Source: Plasmodiophora brassicae (Eukaryota). From it: a DNA stretch of 64,000 bases. Positions 16,586 through 58,209 of the stretch are shown here, piece by piece (the stretch's first letter is position 1; each line of letters starts with the position of its first letter). A program made the translations under genes and the position numbers. Location: assembly GCA_036867785.1 (NCBI GenBank), contig CP145422.1, forward strand, positions 248,001 through 312,000. Reading direction: 5' to 3'. Under the pieces are notes generated by a model that searched no databases, was not told where the DNA came from, and saw only the letters and a program-made list of their open reading frames with translations.

Positions 16586-17027
16586 TCATGTCATGTCGTT
16601 GTCCAGGTCAGACACGTCCGCGTCGCTGGCCGCCGCTAGGCCTGTTCGCGGCGGAGGGCGCCGCGCGACCGCCGGCTTGGCCATGCCCTTGACGATGGGT
16701 GCCCTGGCGCCGGACGGGGACGACGCTATGGCGACGTCGGCGGGCGCTAGGCCCGTACTGGCCTCCCAGCGTGCTGCCTTCTGCCGCCGGTCGGTGTCGC
16801 CGTCCTTGTCGTCCGTGTCGGTCATCGCGGCGATCGTCCCGAACACGTCAAAGTCGCTGCAGTCGGCGTCGTCGTTGGAGACCGTAGCGGCAGCATGAGC
16901 ACAGGGCCGGGGGCTTCTCGCTCGCCGCGCTGTGCCACCTGCCGCCTTGACGTCCTTGGTCTGCCGCTTGGGCTCGTCATCCGACATGGTGAGCACCTTC
17001 CAGTCGATGGTCCGATCGACAAGGTGC

Positions 17028-17059
<32 letters not shown>

Positions 17060-18457
17060 TACGGCGTCGCCAATCGTCTGATCACTGGCCATGGTCATGG
17101 CGTCCCAGTCGACGGTCTTGGCCGAGTCGTGCGTCAGGGCGAACGACGGCGGGCGGCGCCCGGGGAACACGAACGTCGGTTTCGCTTGTCGAGGCGATGG
17201 CGACGGCCCGCTGGACGGTGACGCTGCCGATGACGGGCTGACATTGACATGAAGTTCAACAGGTCCAGGCGCCCGGTCCGCATCCTGCAGACGCTGATGC
17301 TGGACCTGTTCGCTAGCCGTCGCGTCGCCCCTGCCCATCAGGAACATCGTGCGCATGATGAAGCCTACGACGATCAGCGACGCGAACGAGAAGACCACGA
17401 CGAGGACGACGTTCGGCGTCAGGCCCGTGCCGGTGACGTCCCCAATGGATTCGATGTCGCTACCCAACGATGCCGACGCCGCCGCGTCCATGACGACAGC
17501 GTGTGCATACGGAGACGGTGACAACGGCGTCGTCTGCCGGGCAGTGGCACGAAGGAGCGTTGTGCGGGTCGTGGGCGCCGCCGACCCCATTAGCGGCGCA
17601 GCACGACAGACAACGACGACAGATAGCCATTGCAGCGGATCCGTGCACGTCAACGGTGCATAGGATGCCGGTGTGTACGGCACCTGGCACTGGTGACGGT
17701 GTAGGCAGGCCGCACGGGCAACATCCATGGACGACGGCGCGTGACATGATGGATCGACGCTATACGTGGGATACGTGCCCTGCGGGTGCCCGAACGACGC
17801 GAACGCAATGTCGGCAATTCGGGCTGATGGCGCCGGGCACGTGATGGTGAACGGGATTGGGTCGGATTCTGGATAGGCGGTCCCTCCCGTAGCCCGCAGG
17901 TGGCCACCGGGCAATGGGTCCGGCGACGGTAAAGGGGCCGTCGGGCTACAGGTCAGATGCCCAATGTATCCAGCCATCGACAACGGATTCGATGCGTCAG
18001 AGGCGCCGGCGACGATGCTGACCAAAGGGATCGGGTCGAATGTAATTGGCATGGCAACCTGTGGTGCAGCGCTGCTGTCCGGCATGGCGAACAGCAGAGC
18101 TGCTGTCGACAACGTGACGGAAAATGACACCCAACGATCACTGGGTACAGGCGAGGTCTCAATGGACGCCTGCCCGTATGCGATCCGAATGGTGCCGCCC
18201 GGAACGAAGACCATTGTCAGCAGGGGAGCTGGTTGTCCAGGCACCCATATCGAAAGAATGGGGCGATCCATTTTCGCAGACATGAAAGACGGAATATGGA
18301 GCCAACCAGTCAGGTTGGATATCGCGTTCGACAAGCATGGGGATGACCTAACGACGATATTGCCGTACGATGGATGCACTGGGGCACTGATTACTACTGC
18401 CGCATGCGCCAGGTGAGACAGAACACAGACAGCGCCTATGAACACGGCGACATTCAT
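16586..18457 (-). CDS. Type I membrane protein with SUEL (galactose/rhamnose-binding) lectin domain
   Basis: 623-aa ORF: signal peptide, ITCPAPSARIADIAFASFGHPQG...CHAPSSMDVARAACLHRHQCQVP (SUEL pattern), TM segment VVLVVVFSFASLIVVGFIM, and a low-complexity cytoplasmic tail. Confidence 0.8.
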
Positions 18458-18616
18458 TCTACAGATGCAAGTGCATCAGAGCGATCCAGCCAGCGTACTC
18501 ATGCCGAGCAAATATCTGCATGCATGCACGTGCGAAATGAACTGGCCTGGACTCGCTTGTAGGGACCAGGCCGACATTTGCGCAGCATTGTTTGCCAGAC
18601 AGGTCTGCAAATTTTA

Positions 18617-19215: not shown

Positions 19216-19429
19216 ACCTGGCTCCCGTGGCGAGCGAGGCGGCAGCTGTCACGACTGAGTCGTGTTGGCGACTCAGCCGGCACCAAATTGGGCTCCTTCG
19301 TAGCGCACTAGGTACAATAAACGTCCACGGCGCGGACCGACCTCAGTCGGTCAATCCGTGTGGTTGACTCATCGTGTTCGGTCATCACATTTTGACCGAC
19401 TAACCTTCTGTCGTCGTCTTGTCTCGACT

Positions 19430-19695
19430 CGTATCGTATTGTGCCGTATCGTATCGTATTGTGCCGTATCGTATCGTATTGTGCCTTATCGTATCGTATT
19501 GTGCCGTATCGTATCGTATTGTGCCGTATCGTATCGTATTGTGCCGTATCGTATCGTATTGTGCCGTTTCGTATCGTATTGTGCCGTATCGTACCGTGCC
19601 GTACCGACTAACCTTCTGTCGTCGTATTGTCTCGACTCGTATCGTATTGTGCCGTATCGTATCGTATTGTGCCGTATCGTACCGTGCCGTACCGT
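19430..19695 (+). repeat. 20-bp tandem repeat (CGTATCGTATTGTGCCGTAT)n in the 5' leader of element A
   Basis: Directly visible. It generates the spurious RIVSYCAVSY ORFs. Confidence 0.9.
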
Positions 19696-21649
19696 TTCTA
19701 TTGTTGGTATTGTATTGCATTCATGGCAGGAGGCGATGGGTCGATTCCGTCATGGGCGGACGACGTCCCATCGTCCGCGAATCCGGATGTTGCGGGTGCG
19801 TCGGATTTTGCTCTCGGTCCCCTGTCGCATCTGACTTCGCGCGGGGTGTTCTGCCACTGGCGAATCATCTCCCTGCACGACCGCTCACCCCGCCTTCGCT
19901 CACTAGTACCGCTGCCGATTGGCCCGACGACTCTCTGTCCTGTTCGGACCCTCACTCCCCGCCTGCCTTATCGTCCCTACACGTTTCTGCCGCCTCGACG
20001 TCTCTGCAGGACCCCGGCGGCGCGCCTCGGCATGACCCTGTCTCCTCGACGTCGCAGCATATTGGCGCTTCGTCCGTTGGGGCTCGGGTGCCGGCGCCAC
20101 GGGTGTCTCCGGGCCTACCCTTAACGTCTATTGTTGTCCAGTCACAAGACATTCCGCGTTTTTCGGGAAGCGATGGTCTGTCGACGACGCGTTGGTTGAC
20201 TGCGTTCTCTCGGATCACCCAGACGTCGTTAACGTCTACAAGTCCTCTATCCGGCGATGTGCAATGTGTCTTAACGACAGCCTTGCAAGGTCAGGCCCTT
20301 GAGACTTACCTCGACTTGCCTGCGGACGCGTCTATGGCGGACGTAGCGTCCGTCCTGCTCCATGACTTCCCGGGACCTTCGTTCAAGCAGGTTGAAGCGC
20401 AGTTTGACAACATGAAGCAGACTGCAGGTGTCGCTCACCACGCACTGGCATTCCAACGCTTGTACAAGCACCTTCAACGGCTTGACCCATTGTACAGACT
20501 CAGTCCGGCCCGCTTGGCGGAAAAGTTCCGCCTCTCGTTGAACCCTGCGCTCTCCGAAGCGCTGTTCTTCTACAACTTCAGAGACTACGACAAAGTTCTC
20601 GAGATGGCGGTTCATCTTGAGTCGAAATACCCACTCGCCGCCATCAACGCTGGCGGTGATGCAGGGGCACAACCCCTGGCTTGCCACTATTGTCGCGAAG
20701 TTGGGCATTTTATTGCGTCCTGCCCGAAGAGGCCACCGTGCCCGCACTGTCATAAGGTTGGCCACCGCTCATCGCTGTGTCCCGAGCGGACCGGCAACCC
20801 TCTCCACGTCACTGATCTGTTCCTTATGACGTCTCCCTCAATACCGCATCTATTGGTATCGGTACGCCTCGTTATCGGCTCACGCCGTGTCAACACTATC
20901 GCCCTGTTAGACTGTGGTGCGACTTCCAACTTCATCGACTGGTCGTTCTGTCGTCACCATGAAATACCGGTTCGCTCTAAATCGCGTGCCATTCCTGTTC
21001 GCGTCATCGACGGGCGACACCTGTCTCCAGTAACTCAGGAAACCGTCCCGCTACGTGCTACCGTCGACGGATGTTTCGACAGCGATGTCGTCCTGAACAT
21101 GATCCACTCGCCTCAACACCCTGTCATTCTTGGGCTGCCTTGGTTGGCGGATACAAACCCAGATATCGATTGGCGTCAGCGCCGCCTACAGCGCCGCGGA
21201 GATACCCTCGTGGGGATCCGTACAGGAGACGTCCATCACAGGCAGCATATCGGCTACAGCGGGGATACAATTTTGCGAAGGAGCTACAAATCGGCTACAT
21301 CAGTGGACACATTGGTGATACATTCTTCCGCCTGCCCACGGACTGCGCTGATGGGGATACAAATGTGCTACAAGCCTTCAGCACCGCGCTTGGACGTACA
21401 ACCAAACATCGTTTACTTATCCACTCGTAGAGCATGCAACGGACGACGCCACAATCGCATTGGCCCTCGGCAGCACACAGACAAAGCTGGCGCGCATGTT
21501 CGACCCACTGTGCGAGATCATCTCTGGAATTTTCGTGGGCACCAAGACGACGTTCGCCGGAACCGACTGGTTGATCGGGAAGAACGGCGACAGTTCACGT
21601 CCGGACGCCAAGCCATCCCCGGTAATATATCGTGGCAGCTTTAACTCGA

Positions 21650-23391: not shown

Positions 23392-24991
23392 GTGACAAGT
23401 CCGAGGAAGCCGACGAAACTGGCGCGTACACTACCCAGCGGCGGACCGCAGGCGTACACGTCGAGACCGTTATGTACAAATGTAATACGAAACAGAATCT
23501 GACGTAGGTACGTTAGGGTAAGCAGATACTGTATTGTTAATCCTGCTCAAATCGTGGAATACGGAAAGAAGCCTTGTGACGAGAAGTCGTAGTGAGCGGC
23601 GTTTTGCAAGATTCAGTGCGACCGGCTCGGGAGAGGGTGCCGGCTCGGGAGAGGGGTGCTGCATGAAGGCTGCGCAACCCCAGTGGACTCGACCCAGTCA
23701 GAGTCCGATCCGGGCTGCTCATTCGTGACGTGCGCCCACAACCACTCAAAGTGATATTGGGCGGTGTAGGTCGAGATGTCGCGACGAAGACGAGCATCGT
23801 CGAGGTACAAGTACGTCGGCCCTCTTGTCAGGTATCTGACTGTTGGCATTCGAACACAGACCTTCACGGGAAGCCCGTTCAGAGACTCAACGGTCAACGT
23901 CACCCAGTCCTGGCCCTACTCGTGATCCGTTTTCGGGCAGGGGGAAAGAACCCTTGCCACAGGGGCCGATTGCGGAATACCTGTCACCGGAGAATGTCAG
24001 GGCAGCAATGACGCCCCAGCGCAACGCGCTGCGGAGCGGGATGAAAACTCTGTGTGCCGCGTAGGTCAGGCATGGTTTGATATGACCTTATACAATCTGA
24101 CGAAACCGTGGTTGTATAGCTATTACAGTGACGAGTATTTGCTGTCGATGGGCGGACAGAAGAAGCCCACCACGATGAAGATCCATAATGACTTGAAGGA
24201 CTGGTTGAGGCATCGCGATGATCTCAGTGTAGAGGATGTCGACCAGTTCTCCTATAATCATACGAATCTTAGTAAGTGTGTATTTCCATGTAAACACCAC
24301 TGTTTCTGAATGTGTTAACTGCTCTTAGTGATCAAAACTGAGATTGCGAGGCGCCGAGATGATCTGGGGATACGCCATCACCAAGAGGGATCTCAGGTGC
24401 GTCGGAAGAATCGCATGACGATGATGATGATGAGGATTACACCTGGGTGCATCCCGACCTCGTTAAGATGACGGCTCGTCATATAAAGCGCGCCCAGCAA
24501 GAGCTGAGGAATCGGTAATACAGTTTCACGCTCCGGCGGGGTGCGATTCGTCGCAATGGATACGGGTTTCGTGCTTCGAATGCGCTACGAAATACGGTAG
24601 TAGAAGGGCTACAGCTGGGCTACATTAATGTAGCCGGTCTGTTACCGAACGGCTACATTTACGCTACATTAATGTAGCGTAACTGTAGCCTTCCGGCTAC
24701 ATCCAGACTACAAGTGTTGTAGCTAAAATGTGTCCAATCGGCTACATCTCAGATACATTGAATGTAGCGTGTATGCAATCAGGACACTGTTGCGACCTCG
24801 AGTTCGCAGTCCGTGGCGGAGTCCGTGGCGGAGTTCGTTGCTGACTGACCTATCTGGCTTTGCGGACATTCCGGACATTCTCACGGTGCTGCCATGGCAG
24901 TTCACGGACTACTAAAGTCATTCTGTTATTGTCCTGCTTGAGTTCACGTGTCCCGTGCTTCAATTGGTTTTGGGCCCATCCCAAGCCTACC

Positions 24992-25106
24992 TCTGTCCCT
25001 GTTTCTGTCCCTGTTCCTGTCCGTGTTCCTGTCCCTGTTCCTGTCCTTGTTCCAGTCCCTGTTCCTGTCCCTGTTCCTGTCCCTGTTCCTGTCACTGTTC
25101 CTGTTC
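24992..25106 (+). repeat. (CCTGTY)n hexamer repeat in the leader of element B
   Basis: Directly visible. Confidence 0.85.
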
Positions 25107-25186
25107 CAGCGTCCGAAGCCCCTCGTGATCCAGCTCGCGTCGTGACCGCCCGCGTTCCGTCTCCGTCTCTCTCGTGATCGCCCGCA

Positions 25187-26137
25187 ATGGCGGAAGACTG
25201 GAACCAGCTCGTTACAGGCCTTACCTCCCAGATCCAGATCCTTCAACAACAGCAACAGCAGCAGCAGCAGCTACTGCAGCAACAGCACGACCAACTGCTG
25301 CAACAGCAACAACAACTGACGCAGGCCCAGGCCTCCCCACAACAGCGAACGGTCTCACAGCATCATGCTCCTGAGCCCAAGGTCAAGCTTCCGCCCATGT
25401 ACAACGGCGGCCGGGGCGAACTTCGCGGCTTTCTGAACCAGATCAAGCTGGTTATCACTCAGCGGCCCAACACCTACGCGGCCGACGCTCAGAAGGTCGC
25501 GCTGGTGGGCCAGCTGTTGGGTGGGGACGCCCTAAAGTGGTTTAACCCACTGTTCGAGCGGAATAACGACCTGATGAAGGACTTCAGCGCCTTCGTCTCC
25601 GCAATCAAGAGCAGATTCGGGGACCCGAACCTCGCAGAGACCGCGGCCCGCAAGCTCCAGCACCTGCGTCAGGGCAGAGGCACTGTCGCCCGCTTCGCCA
25701 CAGAATTCCAGAATCTGGCGGCGGACGCTGGGTTCAACGACTCAGCCTGCCGACACATGTTCCGCGCCGGCCTGGCCAGGGACGTGCAGTTCCTGCTGCT
25801 GTCCCTACCCGTCGCCGAGACGCTTGACGAGCTTGTCATACAGGCAATTCGGTGCGACAACCGCCTGGCCGAGCACCGATCGGCCACCGCCCTCGTTCCT
25901 GTCCCTGCTGTCTCCGCCGCCGCAGTGCCGTCCGCTCCTTCCCCAGCCCCGGCCGCCGCGGTTGGGGATCCTATGGTTATCGACGCCGCGATCGGCGGTG
26001 GGCCCCGCGCGCCCTTAACCCAAGACGAGAAAGATCGCCGTCGTCGCGAAGGCCTGTGCCTCTACTGCGGGGTGGCTGGTCATGTCGCAGTGTCCTGCCC
26101 TGTGCGTCCGCAGGGAAACGCCTCCCGGCGTGGCTGA
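25187..26137 (+). CDS. gag: Element B gag (sushi/PEG10-like capsid plus CCHC knuckle, N-terminal polyQ)
   Basis: PKVKLPPMYNGGRGELRGFL, LRQGRGTVARFATEF, RRREGLCLYCGVAGHVAVSCP. Confidence 0.9.
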   Translation: MAEDWNQLVTGLTSQIQILQQQQQQQQQLLQQQHDQLLQQQQQLTQAQASPQQRTVSQHHAPEPKVKLPPMYNGGRGELRGFLNQIKLVITQRPNTYAADAQKVALVGQLLGGDALKWFNPLFERNNDLMKDFSAFVSAIKSRFGDPNLAETAARKLQHLRQGRGTVARFATEFQNLAADAGFNDSACRHMFRAGLARDVQFLLLSLPVAETLDELVIQAIRCDNRLAEHRSATALVPVPAVSAAAVPSAPSPAPAAAVGDPMVIDAAIGGGPRAPLTQDEKDRRRREGLCLYCGVAGHVAVSCPVRPQGNASRRG

Positions 26138-29100
26138 AATACCGGTCGGTCGCCACGTCTACCAATACACCTGTTCCATCATGTAACCCCGACCACTTCT
26201 CTCCCGAGCCAAGTATGATTTCCGCGTCCACCAACCTCGTCGAGCACTTGGACCGTGTCCTAAGCATAGACGTGTCCCTTCAACTCGACAATGGCAAGAC
26301 TGTACAGACGAAGGCACTTATCGACTCAGGAGCAACCAACGACTTCATACACTCCGACTTCGCCCGCGCTCACAACGTTCCGCTCACCAAGAAACCCGCA
26401 CCGGTAGATCTGGAGGTAATTGACGGGCGGCGGCTACCGAAGGTGGCGCTGGAAACGGCCCCTGTCCGCCTCAGCATCGGCAACCACTCCGAATCGATCG
26501 TGTTGAACGTAATCGACTCCCCACGATTCCCGATTATCCTCGGCATGACCTGGCTCTCGAGGCACAACCCGAACATTAACTGGACACGCCGAACGATGGA
26601 GATTACTCGTGTCACTCAGGACGCCGCGCGCGAACAGAGCGAACCCAAGGAAGCCATCACAGCCCTAACCTTGCACGACACTGACGTATTCCCTCAGCAA
26701 CCAGACCCACCACCTCAAGACCTCTCGCCACCCCCACGACACGAACGGCGGTCGAGGGCCCGTGTTGACAGCGGCAAGGCACCATACGCAGTCCCACTTC
26801 CCGGTGATTGGAACCAAGCCCAATGCCTCAAGCGGTGGCACCACCGACTCGGCCATCGTAACCTGCGGGACGTCATCCTGATGGCAAACCACGACCTCAC
26901 CGAATCCATGGAGATTCTGGCGCAGAAGGTTGACAAGTTCTGTGAAGGGTGCACTGTCGCGAAAGCCAAGGAACGCCCTTTCCCGTCGGAGTCCAAAGAC
27001 AAGGAGTGGAATGTTCTCGAGAGAATCGACGTCGACGAATGCGGTCCGCTTCCCGTTGCGTCACTCAATGGGGAACGGTACTTTATCACGTTCACAGAAT
27101 TCGCAACCAGGATGAAATTCACATTCCTGCTGCACCACAAGAACGAGGCGCTGACCAAGTTCAAAGAGCTCAAGGCACGAATTGAGAACCGCCTGGAGAA
27201 ATCCATTAAGATCCTGTTCGGTGACAACGATGGAGTATTCATCAACGACGAGTTCAAGGCGCTCCTGCAGGAATGCGGGATCGAATGGAGATCAACGGTG
27301 GAGTATTCTTCTAAGCAGAACGGCGTCTCCGAACGTGGCCACCTGACGCTCATGGACTCCGGCCGCGCAATGCTCGTACACGCAAGGCTTCCCAAGCAGT
27401 TCTGGGGACCCGCAATCCTGACTGCCAGCCACGTCCATAATCTCTGCCCCCACCCTCGCGATCCCACGACAACGCCCCATGAAAAGCTGTCGCGTTCGAA
27501 ACCCGACATCCGCTATCTCAGAACGTTCGGGTGCGACGCATATGGCTACGTCCCGTCCAGCCAGAGAACGAAGCTGGATCCACGCGCTGTGAAAGGCATC
27601 TTCATCGGATACGCGGACCACCAGAAAGGGTACGTTCTCTATCACCCGTCGTCCGGCCTAATCAAGGTGTACCGCAGCGTGACGTTCAACGAAGACAGCT
27701 TCGGCGGCCGCAGTGCAGATGACGCACTCGCTGATCCCGACGAGCCCGAGTCCGAATACGACGGCAACTACGTCCCCTCCGATGACGAATCCGCCGTCGA
27801 GGGGGCGCAGCTTGCAGGCCCCAGTGAGGATCCGCGGTCTCCCATTCAACGGGCTCGGCGTACCCCCCGCAAGCCAGACCGTCTTGGAGACCCCGTTCAT
27901 CACGCCTGGATCGCGTCACTGCAACCTACCCACGACGCCCCCATCCACCACATGTGGATAGGTTCCACACATCAATGCGAGGACGACGACGGCGCCACAC
28001 CCAGCGCAGAGGACCCCGACACTCCAACCACATACGAAGACGCTATGGCGAGTCCCGAGGCAGAGTTCTGGACCAAGGCGATGACCGATGAATTGAACAG
28101 CCTGACAGAGCACAAAACATGGGAAGCCGTCGAGCGACTACCCGTTGGGGCCCGTCCCATCGGATGTCGCTGGGTGTACAAGCGCAAAATCATGAAGACA
28201 AGTCAGGTTCCGCCAGACTCCACCTGGGTGCTTCGCCACGACCCCGATGGTGTCACCACCCACCGGTATAAGGCTCGCCTGTGTATACTTGGCTACAAAC
28301 AGCGCGAAGGCGTCGACTACACCAAGACGTACGCGCCAGTTATTCGCAGCGACATCCTCCGCCTAGTACTAGCCCTATCCGTCCACGACAAGGAGATTAT
28401 CGCAGAGCAGATGGACGTGATGACGGCATTTCTGAACGCCTACCTCACCGAAGAGATCTACATGGACTCTCCGAAGGGGTCGAAGGCCAGAACCCGCTTC
28501 GTCAAGCTCCTTCGATCGATCTACGGCCTGAAACAGGCACCAAGAGAATGGTTCAAGGTCATCGACGCCTTCCTCGTCAACGAATGTGGGTTCCAACGAG
28601 CCAAGTCCGCGTCGTGCTTGTACTTCAAACGTAGTCCAACCGGAAGGCTCGTCGTCGTTGGGGTCTACGTCGACGATATCCCCATCGTCGGACATCCCGA
28701 ACTTGTACACGAAACCAAGTCATCCCTCTCAAGGAGATTCAAGATGTCTGACATGGGTGAACTTCAATCCGTCATCGGCCTCGACGTGGATAGACAAGGT
28801 GGATCGGTGTTTCTGTCACAGGAACGCTACACGAAGACCATCATCGACACCTACGGCATGGCTGAATCGCGCCCCGTCTCGACACCGGCAGACGCGAACT
28901 TGAAGCTATCCACATCACTGTGCCCGCAGAACCAAGCTGACCGTGAACTGGTCGCGTTAGAAGGCCAGCGCATCAACTACCGAGCGGCAGTAGGCCACCT
29001 AATGTGGCTACTACACACTCGCCCAGACATCGCCTACGCTGTGAACGAGGTCTCACGTTATGTTCAAGACCCAGGGCCAGCCCATTTCGTCGCGCTGAAG

Positions 29101-29751
29101 CGGATCTTCAGGTACCTCAACGGCACGCGCAACTACGGGCTCCTGTTCGAAGGAGGTGGGGAAGCAACCACACCATTCCTAGTCGGCTATTCCGACTCTG
29201 ACTGGGCAGGAGACGTCGACTCACGTCGGTCAACTTCTGGATACGTGTTCCTTCTGAATGGCTGTCCGGTTTCGTTCCGTTCTAAGAAGCAGACCACAGT
29301 CGCGTTATCATCGTGCGAGGCGGAGACGGTGGCATCAACACTCGCGGCAACAGAAGGCGTATGGTTGCGCAATGTGCTGGACGAACTAGGTTTTCCACAA
29401 GCTCAGCCTACGCTCCTAAACGTGGACAACCAGGGGGCGATCGCGTTTGCCAACAGTGAAATCAACCACAGCAAAATGAAACACCTCGCGCTCAAGGATC
29501 ACTTCGTCAGAGAACTGGTGGCATCCAACCTGATCAAGGTGCACTATGTTCGCTCAAGTGACAATCTAGCCGATATCTTCACGAAGCCGCTGGGGAAGGT
29601 CAAGTTTGTCGAATTCCGGCAGGCTCTCAAGTGCGTACCTCGTCCTGACCGAATCCCGAACTCTTCGGTCGAGGGGGCGAATCAGGACACTGTTGCGACC
29701 TCGAGTTCGCAGTCCGTGGCGGAGTCCGTGGCGGAGTTCGTTGCTGACTGA
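26113..29751 (+). CDS. pol: Element B pol (PR-IN-RT-RNaseH), entered by a -1 frameshift
   Basis: Uninterrupted ORF with LIDSGAT, WHHRLGH..C..C, D-D-E integrase, QMDVMTAFLN, LLRSIYGLKQAPREW, YVDD, GYSDSDWAG, SSCEAE and ADIFTK. G GGA AAC at 26113-26119. Confidence 0.9.
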   Translation, partial: GKRLPAWLKYRSVATSTNTPVPSCNPDHFSPEPSMISASTNLVEHLDRVLSIDVSLQLDNGKTVQTKALIDSGATNDFIHSDFARAHNVPLTKKPAPVDLEVIDGRRLPKVALETAPVRLSIGNHSESIVLNVIDSPRFPIILGMTWLSRHNPNINWTRRTMEITRVTQDAAREQSEPKEAITALTLHDTDVFPQQPDPPPQDLSPPPRHERRSRARVDSGKAPYAVPLPGDWNQAQCLKRWHHRLGHRNLRDVILMANHDLTESMEILAQKVDKFCEGCTVAKAKERPFPSESKDKEWNVLERIDVDECGPLPVASLNGERYFITFTEFATRMKFTFLLHHKNEALTKFKELKARIENRLEKSIKILFGDNDGVFINDEFKALLQECGIEWRSTVEYSSKQNGVSERGHLTLMDSGRAMLVHARLPKQFWGPAILTASHVHNLCPHPRDPTTTPHEKLSRSKPDIRYLRTFGCDAYGYVPSSQRTKLDPRAVKGIFIGYADHQKGYVLYHPSSGLIKVYRSVTFNEDSFGGRSADDALADPDEPESEYDGNYVPSDDESAVEGAQLAGPSEDPRSPIQRARRTPRKPDRLGDPVHHAWIASLQPTHDAPIHHMWIGSTHQCEDDDGATPSAEDPDTPTTYEDAMASPEAEFWTKAMTDELNSLTEHKTWEAVERLPVGARPIGCRWVYKRKIMKTSQVPPDSTWVLRHDPDGVTTHRYKARLCILGYKQREGVDYTKTYAPVIRSDILRLVLALSVHDKEIIAEQMDVMTAFLNAYLTEEIYMDSPKGSKARTRFVKLLRSIYGLKQAPREWFKVIDAFLVNECGFQRAKSASCLYFKRSPTGRLVVVGVYVDDIPIVGHPELVHETKSSLSRRFKMSDMGELQSVIGLDVDRQGGSVFLSQERYTKTIIDTYGMAESRPVSTPADANLKLSTSLCPQNQADRELVALEGQRINYRAAVGHLMWLLHTRPDIAYAVNEVSRYVQDPGPAHFVALKRIFRYLNGTRNYGLLFEGGGEATTPFLVGYSDSDWAGDVDSRRSTSGYVFLLNGCPVSFRSKKQTTVALSSCEAETVASTLAATEGVWLRNVLDELGFPQAQPTLLNVDNQGAIAFANSEINHSKMKHLALKDHFVRELVASNLIKVHYVRSSDNLADIFTKPLGKVKFVEFRQALKCVPRPDRIPNSSVEGANQDTVATSSSQSVAESVAEFVAD

Positions 29752-32700
29752 CCTATCTGGCTTTGCGGACATTCCGGACATTCTCACGGTGCTGCCATGG
29801 CAGTTCACGGACTACTAAAGTCATTCTGTTATTGTCCTGCTTGAGTTCACGTGTCCCGTGCTTCAATTTATGCGTCCGAAAGGCTACATTTGAGATACAT
29901 TAATGTAGCATTCACGTGCCCGGGGTGCTACATTTGAGCTACATTCATGTAGCGTGTTTGTAGCCTTTCGGCCACAAACATGCTACATGAATGTAGCACA
30001 AATGTAGCCAACACGCTACAAACGTGACACAGGCATGTAGCACCTCTGTTGTCGGGCGGCTACATGAATGTAGCGCCGATGCACCATTGCAAAATACCAA
30101 AATGATGTAGCGCGCATGTAGCGAATCTGCTGCCTGTGCATGAGTCTGGGTCCTTCGTCTCTTCGGCGGGAACAGGAGACGTCGATGGGTCTGGGTCCTT
30201 CGTCTCTTCGGCGGGACCATTTGCAACAGTAAAGCGCGAGGATAGTCTCTCAGCTGGGGTCTCACCTCCTCCACGAAGCGTTCCTGCGCCTGCGTGTGCC
30301 ATCCCTTCAGCTGAATCACTCGAAACGTTGCCGCTTACATCCGTGTTTGTCGACGGCAAGCTGGCTTCCGTAGCTAATGACGACCACTCGGAGTGCCACA
30401 TTGCCACTGCTGCCGTCGACGACAGGCCGAGTCCTTCCGCTTTCGATTATGGTATCCCGGGGGTCGCCGCCTTCAATGATACTGTTGCCACCAGCCGCAC
30501 CGATCTCTTATCATTGCCCCGTTCAGGCTCCGAGTCCACGCCCCTTATGTCCTCCTTCCGGAACTGGGGCCCCGTTCGACGAAGGGTGAAACGGTCTCTC
30601 CCGCCGCCCCCGCCGCCTCCCTCCAATGGTGGCTTCCGAGACGGCCACAGCCTCAATCTTCTGATGTTCGCAACCTTTGTCGCCCTAGCCTGGATCCTAG
30701 TTGGGTGGCCGTATTTTCCAATAGCACAGCTGTGTACGAGCGCCTCTGCGGAGCCCCCGCCCTTGAATGCGCCCGCTGAGTCCTTCTTTGCACCTTTTGC
30801 TACGTTAGAGGATGACCAGGCCTCATCAACCTCGATCGCGTTTCTCAACCACGATCTCATGTTCCTGGACGCCGCCGCACGTGCGTTTGCCCACAAGCTA
30901 CATCGACGACAGATTCGTTCACCCCAATTCCTTAGCGAAGTTGATTTCGTTCATTGGACACCTGACGCCCTGACTCGTCGACTGGAGTACACACTGTCGC
31001 CTAATGATGAAGCAGTTCTTGCTAGGCCTCACCAAATGCTTCAACCCAGACAAGCCCGCAGCCCGTTCCCGGTGCGGCTAGAAGGGGACTATTATGTCAC
31101 GACTGAGTCGTGTTGGCGACTCAGCCGGCACCAAATTGGGCTCCTTCGTAGCGCACTAGGTACAATAAACGTCCACGGCGCGGACCGACCTCAGTCGGTC
31201 AATCCGTGTGGTTGACTCATCGTGTTCGGTCGTCACAGCAGCGCGCGCAGCGAGATATTTCTGCTTTCAGGGCGGGCCGACGAATGTTGACCGATGCAAA
31301 CTACGCTAGTTGCATGCTGTCCAACAATGCTTTGCCACTAATGAATACGGACGCCAGTACAAGTGTATACAACTAGATTCGTATTCATTACATATATCAA
31401 TGTCTAAATGCAACTCTCGAAATGCGCCATCAGGGTACGCCCTGGAAACGGGATACAGCGTCTCCAGATGCGACTCGGGAACCGACGGGAGGTTGCCCAC
31501 CCATTGTTGTACGCGTTGCTCTTCAGCACGCTGCCGTTTCAGCACATCTGCCGACCTGGCCACAGCCTCGCCGGCTCGCCTCGACCCACGCCGCCGGGAG
31601 CTCCGGCCCTTGTCTTGGACGAGCTGCGGCCAAGTATTTCTGTAGAGCGGGGCTCTATATTTAGCGTCTCGTGCCCGACCTCAAGATGCTGCTGTCCTGA
31701 GGAGGGGGTCCTGCTGTCCTGAGGAAAGGGGGCCTGCACGGATTTAGCTCCACTGTGATGGCAGGGCCGACGCCGTGGATGGGATGGATGATAAAGCTCA
31801 TTGGGATATTGGCTCGAGACTGACTACAGTGCGCACTCTGTCTGATCCCACACGTCTGACTTCGTCCCGCACCACGTTCGAGACGCTGCGCCATGGCATC
31901 GGAGACGACGTCCAGCACGGACGAGCATATTGGTGTCAAGGACGCGGATGTCAGCATCCTGCCACGGGTCGCGAAGTTGGACTCCACATCCATCTTGAAG
32001 TTGAAGGAGCAATATGATCGATATTGTGCAGTGGTGATCGACCGTGAGGGCAACCGTCCGGAAGCCGCGAGGATCAAGCCTCAAGCGATACGATTCTGCT
32101 TTACCACGCCGCAGCTGACCTGCATCGCGTTGAATCACCTGTTCCTGAACAATGTCGACCTGCTGACAGATGACGACCTGGAAGGATGGATCGAACCGCA
32201 GATCAAGAAGCTTCCAGCCAGTCATGGCCTGACGACCCAAGACATTGAGGCCAAAATCGCGAGTGAGCTGTCGATGGACACCAGCCTCCCGACTCTGAGG
32301 GATCAAGTTCAGTCGATCCTGGACCGCATGACTGAAATCCAGTGGAGACGAGGCTGGCAGCACATGCGCGAAACAGTCGGTGGGCGTAGAGCCCTTGGCC
32401 GTTTGTTGGTTGATACGCTTCAACCATGGAGGCTACGTGACTTCACAAGGCAATGGGTCAAGGAGGACAAGTCCAAGCGCGAAGGGGACCTGAAGGCGAT
32501 TATGAAGCAAGTGCAGGAGTGGATCATGCACAAGGTCGCTGTCAACGGTTCAGCCCAGACTGGTGGCGTATCCAAGAAGACCTGCGCCGAGCTCCGTCTG
32601 AACGACCGCAGCCACAAGTATCAGGTGGCGATCACGTCGGGGGGACGACGCGTTCGGGAACATCGTCCTCCTCCTCTGAATCGGCCGACCCGTCCGAAGC

Positions 32701-43584: not shown

Positions 43585-46500
43585 TGTGCCGGCTCCAAGC
43601 TATAAGACAAGAATAGCTGTGATCCGGCTGGCCGCCCTAAGAATGACGGACATGCACGAAGTCCGCACGGAGTCCGCACGGCGTCCGCACGGCGTCCGTG
43701 GGAGCTGCAGGTCGAGGACACAGACGACTTCGCACACGGTTCGATAAACCATCACCGTTAGGACGTCACAGAGATCTCTTGAACATCCTTTCGGGGAAGG
43801 TTTCAAAGAAGGACGCGATGGTGGCCACCGCGCAGGAGATGCTGTTGGAAGATGACGTCGACGATCGACAACGAGGACGGAGCGTGCAAGGCTCAACGAT
43901 CGTCCTGCAGATGAACAAGGCGCCGACCTTGAAGAGCATGGACCGCAAAGCCGTCACGACGTTCATGGCCGCGCTGAAGACGTATCGGAATCACTTCCGG
44001 GACGATCCGAACGCCAAGGGCCAGATCCCGCGATCAGTGAAGAGTATGATCGACCCCGGTCTGCTCAGGGCGATCTGCACGTGGGAACTCGGCAAGGACG
44101 CCGAGAGGGTGACGGAGAGCGACCTGATGGACTGGATGAAGAGGCATCTGGAACAGGATCGTTCGACGGACGCGAACATCGACCGGGAGATGCGCAAGCT
44201 GGCGATGAAGCTTACCATCACCACACCGGCGGCAAGGGTCGTGAACCTCGTGCAGCAGTACGAGGAATTGGTCGCGCGCAACGGATGGCAGGACCTCTTC
44301 ACGTCCCGCGAGGGACGGAAGAACCTGGTCAAGTACCTATTGGGTGCTGTGCGCCCATCCGGTTTGCAAGCGCTCATGCGGACCCTCGTCATGAAGCGCC
44401 AGACCGAGCTCCAGAAGGACCCGATGGAGTTCTATCGAGTCCTTAAGGAGCGTGCAGCATCGTATGAGGAAACGATGTTGTACGCGGAGCCGGGACGGGA
44501 GGACGGCAAGGGGAGGGGAAAGGTCAGACCCACCCCGAAGAAGCGAGGGGCGCAGACGGATGACGGAGGCGATGGAGGCCGGGACACGAAACGACACCGG
44601 AAGGACCTGCGATGCTTCAATTGCGAGGAGATTGGGCATCCAGCGTTTCGTTGCCCGAAGAAGCCTACAAAGAAACAGGTTGCAGACATGCTGAAGGATC
44701 GCCGCAAGGTGCCAACGGGAAGGGATGGCTCCCGTAGGGCCAGAGGGATTCAGGAATCTGATAAAGAGGACCTATCGGAGTACCCATGGATTCCAGTGGT
44801 AGGAAGGGTGTCAGAGGAGGCGCGGAGGACAGGGGGCCAAGTAGCCGTTCGTATCAACGGACATGAGGAAGACTACGTTGGGGTTCTGGACAGTGGAGCG
44901 ACATCGGTTGATGTTCTGATGCCATTGACCATAGCGCGCGAGCTGATGGAAAGGGACCCATTGTTAACAATGGAGAAACTCCAGAAGCCGGAAACGTTCT
45001 GTTTGGTAGACAGAGAAACGAAGCACACAGCCTACCATCTGATGACACTGGATCTGGGACTGAAGACGACGGCAGGCGAACTGATCACTCGCCGGCGCCG
45101 ATGCCTCGTATACGACATTCCTGAAAAGGAAATTATCCTAGGTGAGAGGCTGCTTGACGACTTGGGTATCCACCCAAAGAAGGCCCTGGACGTACTCATT
45201 AAGAGCACGCCGATGAAGGGGAATGACGTCATGGATGAAGTGCACAATATGGCAAATGAGGTGCCACCTCTCTGGGAAGGGGAGGAAGAGGAAACAGAGG
45301 ATGTGAGGATCGGGGCAGATTCCACAGACTCCCTGGAAAGGGAGTTGGACGGGATGGTCGAGCGCGCATTGAGGAATGGCCTACCGCAGGCGATGGCAAA
45401 ATCGCTGCGGAAGCTCGTCAAGAGGTACAGGGACGTTTGGCGTATGAGTGTTGGACCCGATGATCCAGCCAGGGTTACACCATTTGTCACGGAGCTGAAA
45501 CCGGAGGCGGAACCCTACAGGTGCCGAGCCAGAAAGTACAGTATGGAGGACAGTGCTTTCATGGAGGAATTCGTTGCCCAATTGAAGAAGTATGGCCTCG
45601 TCGTTGAAAACTACAACGCGAAGTGGGCTTCACCGGTGGTGGTGGTGACGAAGCCAGGGGGCGGAAAGCGGTTCTGTGTTGATCTCAGAGCTGTCAATGC
45701 CAAATGTGTCGCCGTGGCGTGGCCTATGCCACATCAGGAGGCGATACTGAGGAACCTGGCAGGCTCGAGGTTCTGGTTTAAGCTTGACGCGTTCAAAGGC
45801 TTCTGGATGATGCCGCTGGATGAAGCGTGTAAGGAGATCTCCTTCATGACAGATAAGGGGGTGTATAAGCCAACGAGGTCGATGCAGGGGGGAATGAACT
45901 CCGCCCCTCACTATCAAGGGAGGATGTTTGAGGTGTTCGGGGAACTGATGTTTCACAAACTAATCATATGGATCGATGATCTAATGGGGCATGCCCAGAG
46001 GGAGGATGATTGGTTCCGAACGTTGGAACGAACTTTGATGCTAGCCGAACGGCACAACATCAAGTTCAACGTGGAGAAGTGTGAGCTCTTCACGACGGAG
46101 GTTAGGTTCTGTGGGAGGATATTCACGCCAGAGGGGGTAAGGCACGATCCAGCAAGGATCGAAGCTTTGATATCGATCCCACAGCCGAGGACAGCAAGGG
46201 ACTTACAACAATTCCTAATGGCAACTCAGTGGATGAGCAGGTCCATCCCTGAGTACAACAGGAAGGTACACCTGTTGCAGAGGATATATGAGGATGCGAT
46301 GAGGGACCAACCTGGCAGGACGAAAGCCATTGCCAGGAGGGTGCGATTGTGCAAATATGGATGGTCACCCGAACATGCGCAGGCATTCGAGAAACTGAAG
46401 ATGGCAGTGGCGGACACGGTCCAACTAGCGTACCCGCGAAAGGACCGGATCCAATGCCTATTCTCGGATGCTAATGAGGTCAACAGCGCGGCGGTAGTCA

Positions 46501-46663
46501 CACAGATTCCGCCTGAGGATTTGGGTAAACCAGTGCATGGGCAGCGACATGAACCGCTGGGTTTTGTCGGACACAAGTTCGCGGGCCCAGAGCGGAACTG
46601 GTCCACGGTGGAAAAGGAAGGGTTCGCGATCAAGGATGGGATTGACAAACTGGACTATCTCGT
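43585..46663 (+). mobile_element. Element I: 3'-truncated Gypsy element with single gag-pol ORF
   Basis: Candidate LTR TGTGC..GCACA at 43585-43736. ORF has CFNCEEIGHPAFRC, VLDSGAT, WIDD and the start of RNaseH (FSDAN). Integrase is missing. Confidence 0.85.
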
Positions 46664-46665
46664 TA

Positions 46666-47410
46666 CAGTGATTACCGTAATTAGTCTGTATCAGACTAAT
46701 TAGGTGTTAGCGATTTTAGAGGCTCAACCCTTGATTAGTGTGTATAACACTAAATGCGAATTAACACTATATAGGTGCTGGCATGAATACTGTGATACAC
46801 ACTATTTATTTTCACACGTAATTAGTGTGTATAGGCATACGCAGCGCCGCAGTGCGAGCCAGTCCCCACGGACGCCGCACGTGCTGGCCGCTGAGCCCGC
46901 AGGGACCCGGAAATGATTGCACTCTGTTTGTTCACGTGAGATACGCGGATGGCTCCAGCGTCATCGTCACAAGCGTTGTCTGTCTTCTCTGCGTCACCTC
47001 TTGCTGCCGCGTTTGCTCGATCGCAGCTGCATCAGCAGCATTGGCAGCCGCATGATCAAGTGCCACGAGAACCGGAACAGCAGCAAGGCGACGGCGCCGA
47101 AGAGGAGGTTAGGATTGAAGATGATGATGCGAATGCCCGCAACGATTCGGCACGTAAGGGAAAACTGCAGCACGTCTGTACCCAGCAGTCAAGAATCAGG
47201 GTCGTGAAGTGGATGATCGACGACGAAGGTCGTTCCTTAATGTACTTACATAATGAAATTTGAATTTTCATGGTACATTTCGCGTGTATTTACCAGTGTT
47301 GTACTATATATACTGAGGTGTGCCAAGAGCACCCGACCCTGAATAGTGTGTATCACACTAATTATGAACTAACACTAATTGCGCATACAGACTAATTACG
47401 GTAATCACTG
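46666..47410. mobile_element. Non-autonomous Tc1/mariner-type element, 745 bp
   Basis: Perfect 26-bp TIRs CAGTGATTACCGTAATTAGTCTGTAT with TA on both sides. Confidence 0.85.
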
Positions 47411-55600: not shown

Positions 55601-55739
55601 TCATTCTGGGGCTGCCCTGGCTCGAACAGCACAATCCGGATATCGACTGGCGTCGTCGCACCGTACGCGAACGTCTTACTCGGGGATCACCGCGTTTGTG
55701 GCTCGATGCTCGGGCCGGTGGGAACCCCACCGGCTCTGC

Positions 55740-55915
55740 CGACACGGTTGGCTGCTCTGCTGCCACGGTCGCCCTTTCTGATGACACGGTCGCCTGCTCT
55801 CCTGACACGGTCGCCTGCTCTCCTGACACGGCCGTCTGCTCTCCTGGCACGTCCGTCTGCTCTCCTGACACGGCCGTCTGCTCTCCTGACACGTCCGTCT
55901 GCTCTCCTGACACGG
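55740..55915 (+). repeat. 21-bp in-frame tandem repeat (DTAVCSP-like) in the PR-RT spacer of E
   Basis: About 8 copies of a GACACGGYCGYCTGCTCTCCT-like unit. Confidence 0.85.
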
Positions 55916-58013: not shown

Positions 58014-58209
58014 TGTCAAGGACCATGTCGTATCACCGGCACACGGTGACGCCGTGACTGTGCGCGACTGCGTAACGTCCACGGCAGAGGCTCCGCCACT
58101 GACGCCGTTGTCGGTAACGGCTTGTCAAGCCCCTGTTACACAGCGTTACGTCGCCGCCGTCTCGCGCCGATGTCGGTCGGAATAAATCACTTCGTTATTG
58201 TCTTCCTCA
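58014..58209 (+). mobile_element. Solo LTR, family F, at the RNaseH end of E
   Basis: Homologous to 39232-39427. Interrupts NEFD/FVI. No clean 5-bp TSD. Confidence 0.85.

What the first reader, a model, noticed from the sequence alone, without database searches (positions are those of the whole stretch)
24777..29868. Intact Gypsy/Copia hybrid retrotransposon that appears to have transposed as a unit
Seen: the gag (LPPMYNGGRGELRGFL...RRREGLCLYCG..GH...CP..GN) and protease (LIDSGAT...EVIDGRRL...IILGMTWLSRHNPNINW) align by eye with the chromovirus gag and PR of elements E and A in this window (KRQGLCMYC..PGH; VVDGRHL; IILGLPWLEQHNPDIDW). The same uninterrupted ORF then continues with a Copia WHHRLGH integrase, Copia RT (YGLKQAPREW, YVDD) and Copia RNaseH in IN-RT-RH order. 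The PBS (GGTTTTGGGCCCA, close to Drosophila copia's half-tRNAiMet site GGTTATGGGCCCA) and the PPT are Copia-type. The LTRs are identical and there is a 5-bp TSD. Established: Ty1/Copia and Ty3/Gypsy normally keep superfamily-specific gag, protease and domain order. Inference: this is a functional inter-superfamily recombinant packaging Copia enzymes in a Gypsy-type capsid, with the junction at about 26600-26820, and it was recently active.
Basis: partly seen in the sequence, partly recalled or inferred. Interest (0 to 1): 0.92.

Follow-up and report, generated by a model that had tools for sequence, protein, structure and literature searches.

The report
Copia retrotransposon carrying Gypsy gag and protease
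This is an intact, recently inserted jumping gene whose shell protein and protease come from the Gypsy group while its integrase, reverse transcriptase and RNase H come from the Copia group, and relatives elsewhere show that this mixed design is an established lineage, not an accident of assembly.

Summary
Window 24777-29868 is a complete LTR retrotransposon with 189-nt LTRs that are 100% identical, a 5-bp TSD (TATGC), a PBS-like site, and intact gag and pol.

- **Gypsy part:** gag matches Retrotrans_gag, Ty3_capsid and the PEG10 capsid. The protease matches RVP_2 and is 43-45% identical to the chromovirus proteases in the same window.
- **Copia part:** the same pol ORF continues with integrase, RVT_2 reverse transcriptase and RNase H.
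gag and pol lie in different frames. They are linked by an in-frame G_GGA_AAC -1 slippery site that recurs in a relative and, as G_GGA_AAT, in a resident chromovirus.
- **Not an artefact:** contigs from independent sequencing runs bridge the junction.
- **Not a one-off:** at least ten sequences share the protease-integrase fusion. Three of them, including the window copy, also show the Gypsy-type gag.

In RT-RNase H trees these elements form one clade (99-100 SH-aLRT) nested inside canonical Copia. Its sister elements have Copia-type gag and protease. This is an old recombinant lineage that is still active. Eight full-text searches aimed at this design found no description of it.

The parts
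24772..24776 (+). 5' copy of the target site duplication, TATGC
   Evidence: Empty-site reads, table 7 (place 24776, runs X2 and X3).
24777..24965 (+). 5' LTR, 189 nt, with termini AAT...ATT. Holds a tandem 12-mer GTCCGTGGCGGA x2 at 24809-24832.
   Evidence: (100% identical to the 3' LTR).
24966..24978 (+). Primer binding site candidate GGTTTTGGGCCCA, directly after the LTR
   Evidence: The same motif class sits at the equivalent place in L001.
24971..25128 (+). 5' leader with about 10 tandem 12-nt units (CTGTTCCTGTCC-like). Its length varies among copies.
   Evidence: family D1. table 5 (joint 25015 to 25111 in X2 and X7).
25187..26137 (+). gag, 316 aa: N-terminal Q-rich coil, Ty3/PEG10-type capsid and a CCHC knuckle
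26113..26119 (+). Candidate -1 frameshift slippery heptamer G_GGA_AAC, in the gag frame, 16 nt before the gag stop
   Evidence: The same heptamer is in frame in L001 at 1536-1542. G_GGA_AAT is in frame in chromovirus E at 55195-55201.
26127..26159 (+). Hairpin 7 nt after the slippery site, a possible frameshift stimulator
   Evidence: The energy is not better than shuffles (z -0.57). Its position matches hairpins in L001 and chromovirus E.
25828..29751 (+). pol frame, stop to stop. The first ATG is at 26215. It ends inside the 3' LTR.
26290..26613 (+). Gypsy-type aspartic protease, with DSG and the IILGMTWL motif
   Evidence: RVP_2, residues 31-133. (44.6% and 42.9% identity to the window's chromovirus proteases)..
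26632..26757 (+). Poorly conserved Pro-rich linker that contains the Gypsy/Copia junction
   Evidence: protease similarity ends at residue 139. (conservation resumes at about residue 182). (gag_pre-integrs from residue 205).
26758..27702 (+). Copia-type integrase: HHCC finger, D,D35E core and SH3-like domain. No chromodomain.
   Evidence: (invariant H209, H214, C243, C246, D274, D337, E373).
28216..28890 (+). Copia-type reverse transcriptase (RVT_2, YVDD)
   Evidence: 1.6e-58..
28972..29604 (+). Copia-type RNase H (SDSDWAGD ... ADIFTK)
   Evidence: 33% identity to the other Copia, E 6e-46..
29667..29679 (+). Polypurine tract region (GGTCGAGGGGGCG). It lies inside the end of pol and encodes the conserved VEG motif.
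   Evidence: (C-terminal VEGG/VERG conserved in 5 of 5 aligned pols).
29680..29868 (+). 3' LTR
29869..29873 (+). 3' copy of the TSD, TATGC

Best explanation
This is an autonomous LTR retrotransposon from an established recombinant lineage. An ancestor within Ty1/Copia had its own gag and protease replaced by the gag, -1 frameshift site and protease module of a chromovirus-like Ty3/Gypsy element. It kept Copia integrase, reverse transcriptase, RNase H and the polypurine tract, and probably the PBS.

Inferred life cycle:
1. The LTR drives a full-length RNA.
2. Ribosomes make a Gypsy-type Gag (capsid plus CCHC nucleocapsid).
3. A fraction of ribosomes slip -1 at G_GGA_AAC to make Gag-Pol.
4. The Gypsy-type retropepsin cuts the polyprotein.
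5. Copia RT/RNase H copies the RNA inside a Gypsy-type particle. Priming is probably from a tRNA fragment paired to the site next to the 5' LTR.
6. The Copia integrase, which has no chromodomain, inserts the DNA with a 5-bp duplication.

Shown here: the architecture, its conservation in relatives, the phylogenetic placement of each half, the reality of the junction, and the signs of recent insertion.

Inferred only: frameshifting, particle formation, the primer identity and the way the recombination happened.
For: **Integrity and recent insertion**
- LTRs are 189/189 identical, the TSD is TATGC, and both ORFs are intact.
- Catalytic residues are present: DSG, HHCC, D,D35E and YVDD.
- LTR ends of this family join at least four other flanking sequences in public runs. 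Internal contigs occur both at 0 differences and at about 8-9% divergence, so the family is multi-copy (tables 7 and 8).

**Gypsy half**
- gag hits Retrotrans_gag, Ty3_capsid and DUF4939 and the PEG10 capsid 7lga at E 1.8e-11.
- gag is 31% identical over 312 aa (E 8e-39) to the gag of P0134, a polyprotein that carries RVT_1.
- For the protease region, 12 of 12 database hits carry RVT_1 and 0 of 12 carry RVT_2.
- Of 149 representatives examined, 14 of the 14 protease matches that also hold an RT hold a Gypsy RT.
- Canonical Copia proteases split from Gypsy plus hybrid proteases with 100 SH-aLRT.
- The IILG motif is the non-Copia state according to Llorens 2009 (passages).

**Copia half**
- RVT_2 at 1.6e-58, plus SH3_retrovirus and gag_pre-integrs.

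**Lineage**
- P0014-P0017 (49-57% identical in pol) have the same protease fused to a Copia integrase.
- L001 has gag (35% identical, E 6e-55), a -1 frame, the same in-frame GGGAAAC, the protease and Copia pol.
- P0135 has the gag CCHC knuckle, the protease and the Copia integrase in one frame.
- P0136, P0137 and P0145 have the protease plus the Copia integrase N-terminus.

**Direction of the swap**
- The hybrid clade (99-100 SH-aLRT) is nested within canonical Copia when rooted on Gypsy RT.
- Its sister pair, P0022 and P0023, has Retrotran_gag_2 and Pol_BBD in a single ORF.

**Junction**
- X7 record 30 (691 nt) covers 26313-27003 with 0 differences.
- X11 records 5 and 6 cover 25738-26932.
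Against: - No whole genome was available, so full-length copies with other TSDs were not counted. The other flanks seen could belong to solo LTRs.
- No run on record as RNA holds the element, so expression is untested.
- The hairpins after the slippery site are no more stable than shuffled sequence. One member, P0135, has gag and pol in one frame, so frameshifting is not universal in the lineage.
- The protease tree does not resolve the hybrids as one clade. Six of nine group at 88 SH-aLRT and the window copy is unresolved. The AU test only fails to reject one clade (p 0.249).
- The LTR termini AAT...ATT are unusual for an integrase substrate.
- The protease active-site triplet varies among members: DSG, DNG and DDG.
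Confidence: 0.85

Rival explanations
1. Assembly artefact or nested insertion. A Gypsy fragment and a Copia fragment merely lie next to each other between two unrelated LTRs.
For: - Fungal surveys report 'complex transposons' that arise from multiple insertions at one locus (Muszewska 2011, passages). Pipelines routinely discard elements with mixed domains (Neumann 2019, passages; Donnart 2017, passages).
- The window is a nest of elements. This copy itself sits inside an older LTR pair.
Against: - One ORF runs uninterrupted from the protease through RNase H.
- The LTRs are identical with a matching TSD.
- Contigs from independent runs bridge the junction, one with 0 differences over 691 nt.
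- Nine other sequences at 49-57% identity or less have the same fusion at the same place.
Confidence: 0.02
2. Ancestral architecture, not a recombinant. Early Copia elements had Gypsy-like gag and protease, and this lineage kept them while other Copia diverged.
For: - Capsids and retropepsins of the two superfamilies are anciently homologous (established knowledge, recalled).
- The protease tree is poorly resolved.
Against: - Rooted on Gypsy RT, the hybrid clade lies several nodes inside canonical Copia. Its immediate sisters, P0022 and P0023, have Copia-type gag and Pol_BBD.
- The protease is up to 54% identical to the protease of a Gypsy polyprotein (P0002) and 43-45% identical to resident chromoviruses. 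No Pol_BBD hit appears at E up to 0.1.
- The gag C-terminus and the slippery site line up with chromovirus E.
Confidence: 0.05
3. Same recombinant, opposite backbone. A chromovirus contributed the 5' half (LTR/R-U5, PBS, gag, protease) and a Copia contributed the 3' half, through a single crossover between the protease and the next domain. In this reading the PBS and LTR features come from Gypsy.
For: - One crossover is simpler than the two needed to swap an internal cassette.
- The LTR termini AAT...ATT are not typical of either group.
- A 5-bp TSD does not discriminate between the groups.
Against: - The PBS motif is conserved between the window and L001 and is unlike the region after the LTR of chromovirus E.
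- By recall it resembles the half-tRNA sites of copia and Ty5. This was not tested here.
- After one replication cycle U3 comes from the 3' parent in any case, so LTR origin is mixed in either scenario.
Confidence: 0.2

Closest known systems
Ty1/Copia (Pseudoviridae), especially elements primed by a half-tRNA such as copia and Ty5
   Same: - PR-IN-RT-RH order, RVT_2 reverse transcriptase, Copia integrase with gag_pre-integrs and SH3-like domains, and a 5-bp TSD.
- RT-RH is nested inside canonical Copia.
   Different: - gag is Retrotrans_gag/Ty3_capsid type, not Retrotran_gag_2/UBN2.
- The protease is RVP_2 type with ILG, not Pol_BBD with LLS.
- gag and pol are separated by a -1 frame shift.
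- The LTR termini are AAT...ATT.
Chromoviruses (Ty3/Gypsy, Metaviridae), including elements E and A of this window
   Same: - Capsid and CCHC gag, the GGGAAAY slippery site close to the gag stop (16 nt before it in the window copy, 10 nt in element E), and the protease. The protease is 43-45% identical to E and A, and up to 54% identical to the database Gypsy protein P0002.
   Different: - No RVT_1 reverse transcriptase, no RT_RNaseH domain, no H2C2 integrase finger and no chromodomain.
- The integrase lies before the reverse transcriptase.
Gmr1-like Gypsy elements (Goodwin and Poulter 2002; seen only as a reference title, content recalled)
   Same: They mix the features of the two superfamilies: Copia-like pol domain order in an element with Gypsy affinities.
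   Different: By recall, all their domains including the RT are Gypsy by descent and only the order is rearranged. Here IN, RT and RH are Copia by descent.
'Complex' or chimeric LTR elements from nested insertions in fungal genomes (Muszewska 2011; Donnart 2017)
   Same: Domains of both superfamilies lie between two LTRs.
   Different: Those are described as the result of multiple insertions at one locus and are filtered out as artefacts. This element has one continuous pol ORF, a TSD, identical LTRs and a diversified set of relatives with the same junction.
Within-superfamily recombinants (ancient Copia-Copia domain exchange proposed by Neumann 2019)
   Same: Modular exchange of polyprotein domains between retrotransposon lineages.
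   Different: Here the exchange crosses the superfamily boundary and replaces the whole structural and protease module.

Membership tests
Ty1/Copia (Pseudoviridae) | Reverse transcriptase of the Copia type (Pfam RVT_2) that groups with Copia RTs | tested here: met
   RVT_2 at 1.6e-58. Nested in canonical Copia when rooted on Gypsy RT.
Ty1/Copia (Pseudoviridae) | pol domain order PR-IN-RT-RH | tested here: met
   Order of the Pfam matches along the 1178-aa pol.
Ty1/Copia (Pseudoviridae) | Copia-type gag (Retrotran_gag_2/3, UBN2 families) | tested here: not met
   No such hit at E up to 0.1. gag hits Retrotrans_gag, Ty3_capsid and DUF4939 instead. By my reading of the table, 0 of the 120 listed Copia relatives carry PF03732.
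Ty1/Copia (Pseudoviridae) | Copia-type protease (Pol_BBD; LLS motif) | tested here: not met
   No PF22936 hit. The IILG motif is present. Copia proteases separate from it at 100 SH-aLRT. The marker is taken from Llorens 2009.
Ty3/Gypsy chromovirus (Metaviridae) | Gypsy-type RT (RVT_1) with RT_RNaseH | tested here: not met
   No RVT_1 or RT_RNaseH hit in pol.
Ty3/Gypsy chromovirus (Metaviridae) | Order PR-RT-RH-IN, with an H2C2 integrase finger and a C-terminal chromodomain | tested here: not met
   The integrase precedes the RT. No Integrase_H2C2 or Chromo hit. Both are present in the window's chromoviruses.
Ty3/Gypsy chromovirus (Metaviridae) | Ty3-type capsid gag and RVP_2-type protease | tested here: met
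Programmed -1 ribosomal frameshift site | An X_XXY_YYZ heptamer in the zero frame within the gag/pol overlap | tested here: met
   G_GGA_AAC at 26113-26119, in frame. Conserved in L001. G_GGA_AAT in chromovirus E.
Programmed -1 ribosomal frameshift site | A stable downstream stimulatory structure 5-9 nt after the heptamer | tested here: inconclusive
   Hairpins start 5-7 nt downstream in all three elements, but their energies are not better than shuffles (z -0.57, -0.71, -1.27).
Programmed -1 ribosomal frameshift site | A measured Gag-Pol fusion product | not testable with these tools
   Needs protein or ribosome-profiling data.
Half-tRNA-primed elements | PBS complementary to the anticodon stem-loop of the host initiator tRNA | not testable with these tools
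   No tRNA gene in the window and no genome held. Only conservation of the motif between the window and L001 was shown.

The most novel reading that the evidence does not exclude
This is a previously undescribed, evolutionarily stable clade of LTR retrotransposons created by exchange of a whole module across superfamilies. A Copia replication engine (IN-RT-RH, PPT, half-tRNA-like PBS) is packaged and processed by a chromovirus capsid, nucleocapsid, -1 frameshift signal and protease. The clade has non-canonical AAT...ATT LTR ends and is still transposing. If so, capsid/protease and polymerase/integrase modules of Pseudoviridae and Metaviridae are functionally interchangeable in nature, and classification by RT alone hides such lineages.
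Probability: 0.5. Interest if true: 0.8.

Novelty: new variant of a known kind. Interest (0 to 1): 0.72.

Why it matters
LTR retrotransposon classification, and the virus families Pseudoviridae and Metaviridae, assume that gag, protease and pol evolve together within a superfamily. Annotation pipelines discard elements that mix domains as artefacts.

Here the mixed design is a working, diversified lineage. That shows a Gypsy-type capsid, nucleocapsid and protease can serve Copia enzymes. This raises testable questions:
- how Gag recognises the RNA and the primer;
- how a foreign protease finds cleavage sites in a Copia polyprotein;
- how the Gag to Gag-Pol ratio is set when a single-ORF lineage acquires a frameshift signal.

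It also warns that surveys built on RT alone (for example from pfam07727 to the ADxxTK motif) cannot see such exchanges.

Tried and rejected

**Expression**
- No RNA holder is listed among the 24 runs.
- Runs X7 and X11 are only guessed to be RNA. Their contigs cover mainly 24866-27023. I draw nothing from the uncovered parts.

**Frameshift structure**
- Folding 26114-26200 gave no significant structure (z -0.66).
- Folding from the spacer onwards gave hairpins in the right place but not better than shuffles.

**Searches that found nothing useful**
- Atlas search of pol residues 1-420: the listed nearest large clusters with a named Pfam family are canonical Copia fragments. No hybrid cluster appears. 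This is a blank, not evidence of absence.
- Host taxon: Pfam on ten further window ORFs found one helicase fragment and a chromovirus integrase. The Atlas search on the helicase gave no usable taxon.
- PDB sequence search with the protease: no hit at E up to 1.
- tRNA scan of the window: 0 genes.
- gag search among longer proteins: only 1 hit among 8000 scored candidates. The Q-rich N-terminus probably wasted search words.

**Analyses that failed or did not finish**
- AU test on the full 104-row protease set did not finish in 576 s. It was replaced by a 47-row set.
- MAFFT alignment of the LTR-end and PBS regions of the window and L001 misaligned the motif. It was replaced by a pattern search.

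**Papers**
- Gao et al. 2003 on recoding signals is not held, so statements about how rare -1 frameshifting is in Copia are recalled only.
- Two calls had term-syntax errors and were rephrased.


Full report
**1. What is at 24777-29868**

Two 189-nt direct repeats, 24777-24965 and 29680-29868, are 100% identical. The five bases TATGC lie immediately outside both, at 24772-24776 and 29869-29873.

The element sits in a 44-nt satellite (family D3). Contigs from two public runs (X2, X3) read from 24776 directly into the sequence that follows the 3' TATGC (table 7). That is the unoccupied form of the site, or a sister repeat unit. Either way it fixes the element's ends.

Those ends are 5'-AAT...ATT-3', not the usual TG...CA. 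Kojima 2025 (abstract) notes that TG...CA termini are the rule for LTR retrotransposons.

Directly after the 5' LTR lies GGTTTTGGGCCCA. With the two preceding T, this motif class occurs once in the 64-kb window, against 0 of 100 shuffles.

**2. Coding capacity**

- gag is 25187-26137, 316 aa.
- pol is open from 25828 to 29751, with its first ATG at 26215, giving 1178 aa.
- Sixteen bases before the gag stop, in the gag frame, lies G_GGA_AAC (26113-26119). This is a textbook X_XXY_YYZ slippery heptamer (established knowledge).
- A hairpin starts 7 nt downstream, but its energy is not better than shuffles (z -0.57).

**3. Which superfamily each part belongs to**

*gag.* Pfam gives Retrotrans_gag 1.1e-14, DUF4939 9.7e-11 and Ty3_capsid 2e-8.
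- gag matches the solved capsid domain of PEG10, a Gypsy-derived gene, at E 1.8e-11.
- The only longer protein found, P0134, carries RVT_1, and its gag is 31% identical over 312 aa (E 8e-39).

*pol.* Pfam gives RVP_2 (4.4e-8, residues 31-133), then gag_pre-integrs, rve, SH3_retrovirus (5e-26) and RVT_2 (1.6e-58). There is no hit to Pol_BBD, RVT_1, Integrase_H2C2 or Chromo.

*Comparison inside the window*.
- The protease is 44.6% identical (E 1e-30) and 42.9% identical to the proteases of two chromoviruses, at 55336-55695 and 20856-21191.
- The Copia part is only 26-40% identical to the other Copia at 47423-50232.

*Database searches with the protease.*
- With pol residues 1-200, 12 of 12 hits carry RVT_1, 8 of 12 carry a chromodomain and 0 of 12 carry RVT_2.
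- In an exhaustive HMMER search with pol residues 1-330, I examined 149 of the 150 best representatives. I left out P0041, which one search had already listed as a canonical Copia protein.
  - 72 match the protease only. Of these, 14 also hold an RT, and all 14 are Gypsy RTs.
  - 73 match the integrase N-terminus only. Of these, 19 hold a Copia RT.
  - 4 match both parts in the right order.

*Protease trees.* Canonical Copia proteases separate from Gypsy plus hybrid proteases with 100 SH-aLRT (104 rows; 47 rows). Rows labelled Gypsy in the 104-row tree include 58 protease-only fragments from the representative search whose RT is unknown.

*Literature markers.* Llorens et al. 2009 (passages) state that the ILG versus LLS protease motif separates Copia from the other families. 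This element has IILG. Muszewska et al. 2011 (passages) report RVP_2 in Ty3/Gypsy elements.

**4. The junction**

Protease similarity ends at about pol residue 139 (nt 26631). Conservation among relatives resumes at about residue 182 (nt 26758). The Copia gag_pre-integrs match begins at residue 205 (nt 26827).

**5. It is not an artefact**

Twenty rows in 11 studies hold the stretch 25900-27300. I laid contigs from four runs of four studies on the element.
- X7 record 30 (691 nt) covers 26313-27003 with 0 differences.
- X11 records 5 and 6 cover 25738-26932.
- X2 record 10 and X3 record 18 cover 26750-27447 with 0 differences.

The same runs hold diverged versions, such as 61 differences in 663 nt and 27 in 351 nt. 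They also hold LTR 3' ends joined to at least four other flanks, all with the ...CAATT terminus. The family is therefore multi-copy and has inserted elsewhere. Those other sites could be solo LTRs.

**6. It is a lineage**

Searching with the Copia part (residues 201-1178) gave 4210 hits, of which 120 were listed.
- The top four, P0014-P0017, are 51-57% identical by BLASTP (49-57% in the alignment) and about 1100 aa long.
- They lack the Copia gag (PF14223) and Pol_BBD (PF22936) that nearly all other listed hits carry. By my reading of the table, all but ten of the 120 have PF22936.
- P0015 carries RVP_2 and P0017 carries gag-asp_proteas.
- Aligned, all share the protease motifs (VIDGR, ILGM.WL..HNP.I.W) followed by the Copia integrase (Pfam).

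A metagenome contig, L001, has the full design.
- Its gag is 35% identical to the window's (E 6e-55) and hits the same three Pfam families.
- Its pol is in the -1 frame.
- G_GGA_AAC is in the gag frame at 1536-1542, with a hairpin 5 nt downstream.
- A PBS-like TTGGTTATGAGCCCA lies upstream of gag.

P0135 carries the gag CCHC knuckle, the protease and the Copia integrase in one frame. The linkage is therefore seen in a third member, and the frameshift is not universal. P0136, P0137 and P0145 add three more protease-integrase fragments.

**7. Direction and age of the exchange**

In an RT-RNase H tree (55 rows, 469 columns) the six hybrids form one clade at 100 SH-aLRT. The clade also includes P0021, which is identical to L001. 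Its sister is P0022 plus P0023, also at 100.

With nine Gypsy RT-RH sequences as outgroup, the clade (99) stays several nodes inside canonical Copia. This is a quick tree, and a long-branch warning applies at the outgroup attachment.

P0022 and P0023 are single-ORF polyproteins with Retrotran_gag_2 and a weak Pol_BBD match. The simplest reading is that a canonical Copia ancestor lost its own gag-protease and gained a chromovirus one.

One origin is not proven from the protease alone. Six of nine hybrid proteases group at 88 SH-aLRT, and the AU test does not reject a single clade (p 0.249).

Chromovirus E of this window has G_GGA_AAT in frame 10 nt before its gag stop, a hairpin 5 nt downstream, and a CCHC region 44% identical to the hybrid's. 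The whole gag, frameshift signal and protease module therefore looks chromoviral. The resident chromoviruses are not the direct donors, since their identity is only 43-45%.

**8. How it probably works, and what is inferred**

*Shown:* the architecture, intact catalytic motifs (DSG; HHCC; D274, D337, E373; YVDD), recent insertion, conservation across relatives, and the descent of each half.

*Inferred:*
- -1 frameshifting at GGGAAAC sets the Gag to Gag-Pol ratio.
- A Gypsy-type particle assembles and is matured by the Gypsy-type protease.
- A tRNA fragment primes at the PBS. The likeness to the copia and Ty5 half-tRNA sites is recalled, not tested. Neumann 2019 (passages) confirms that half-tRNA priming is a recognised class.
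- The plus strand is primed at GAGGGGG, which lies inside the conserved C-terminal VEGG motif of pol.
- A Copia integrase without a chromodomain carries out integration.

Whether the PBS and leader came from the Copia parent (two crossovers) or the chromovirus parent (one crossover) is open. The region after the LTR of chromovirus E is unlike this PBS.

**9. Is it known?**

Eight of my nine full-text searches were aimed at an inter-superfamily Copia/Gypsy recombinant lineage, and none found a description. The ninth only located a cited paper.
- The closest statements are ancient recombination within Copia (Neumann 2019) and 'complex' elements from nested insertions (Muszewska 2011).
- Two papers report deliberately removing mixed-domain elements from their surveys.
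- Fungal Copia clades were defined from RT-RNase H only (Donnart 2017). This clade may therefore be catalogued without its hybrid nature having been noticed.

Supplementary files, Repbase and Dfam could not be consulted. I rate the element a new variant of a known kind, with about even odds that the design is truly undescribed.

**10. Host**

The window is a nest of retrotransposons at 59% G+C. Attempts to get a taxon from host ORFs gave nothing. Some protease relatives come from smut fungi, and holders include plant and soil metagenomes. A plant-associated fungus is only a guess.

Noticed in passing
window 24777-24779 and 29866-29868: The LTR termini are AAT...ATT instead of TG...CA. Other copies in public runs also end ...CAATT. 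The conserved pol C-terminus VEGG-N suggests that the LTR starts with AAT or AAC in relatives too.
   Followed up: partly
window 24971-25128: About ten tandem 12-nt units lie in the leader between the PBS and gag. In runs X2 and X7 a variant replaces 25016-25110 with 39 other letters (tables 5 and 5c). This could be a packaging or dimerisation region, or just a variable microsatellite.
   Followed up: no
window 24809-24832; L001 about 225-250: The LTR carries a tandem 12-mer, GTCCGTGGCGGA x2. It also encodes the SVAESVAE tail of pol. L001 has a similar doubled motif in the opposite orientation upstream of its PBS. This may be a shared regulatory site.
   Followed up: no
window 19247-19389 and 31095-31237: A 143-nt direct repeat pair, 99% identical, brackets the hybrid, the 44-nt satellite arrays (24591-24767, 29866-30041) and a gag-protease ORF (19404-21644).
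   Followed up: partly
window 53973-59995: Chromovirus E has identical 135-nt LTRs with TG...CA ends, gag at 54113-55213, G_GGA_AAT at 55195-55201 and a -1 pol frame. A stop at 55390-55392 interrupts the protease frame.
   Followed up: partly
window 47423-50232: A second Copia (SH3_retrovirus, RVT_2) is split over two frames. It is only 26-40% identical to the hybrid's Copia part and lies just downstream of a Gypsy RT ORF at 43647-46703.
   Followed up: no
P0135 (412 aa): In this relative the gag CCHC knuckle, the protease and the Copia integrase are in one reading frame. The lineage therefore uses both frameshifted and single-ORF gag-pol layouts.
   Followed up: partly
alignment A1 and L001 pol: The protease active-site triplet varies among members: DSG in the window and P0015, DNG in P0017, DDG in L001, and an unclear state in P0016.
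   Followed up: no
window 16589-18475 (-) and 920-2011 (+): The only ORFs with non-transposon Pfam hits among those I scanned are one with a SUEL-type lectin domain (7.2e-9) and a helicase C-terminal fragment (2e-10).
   Followed up: no
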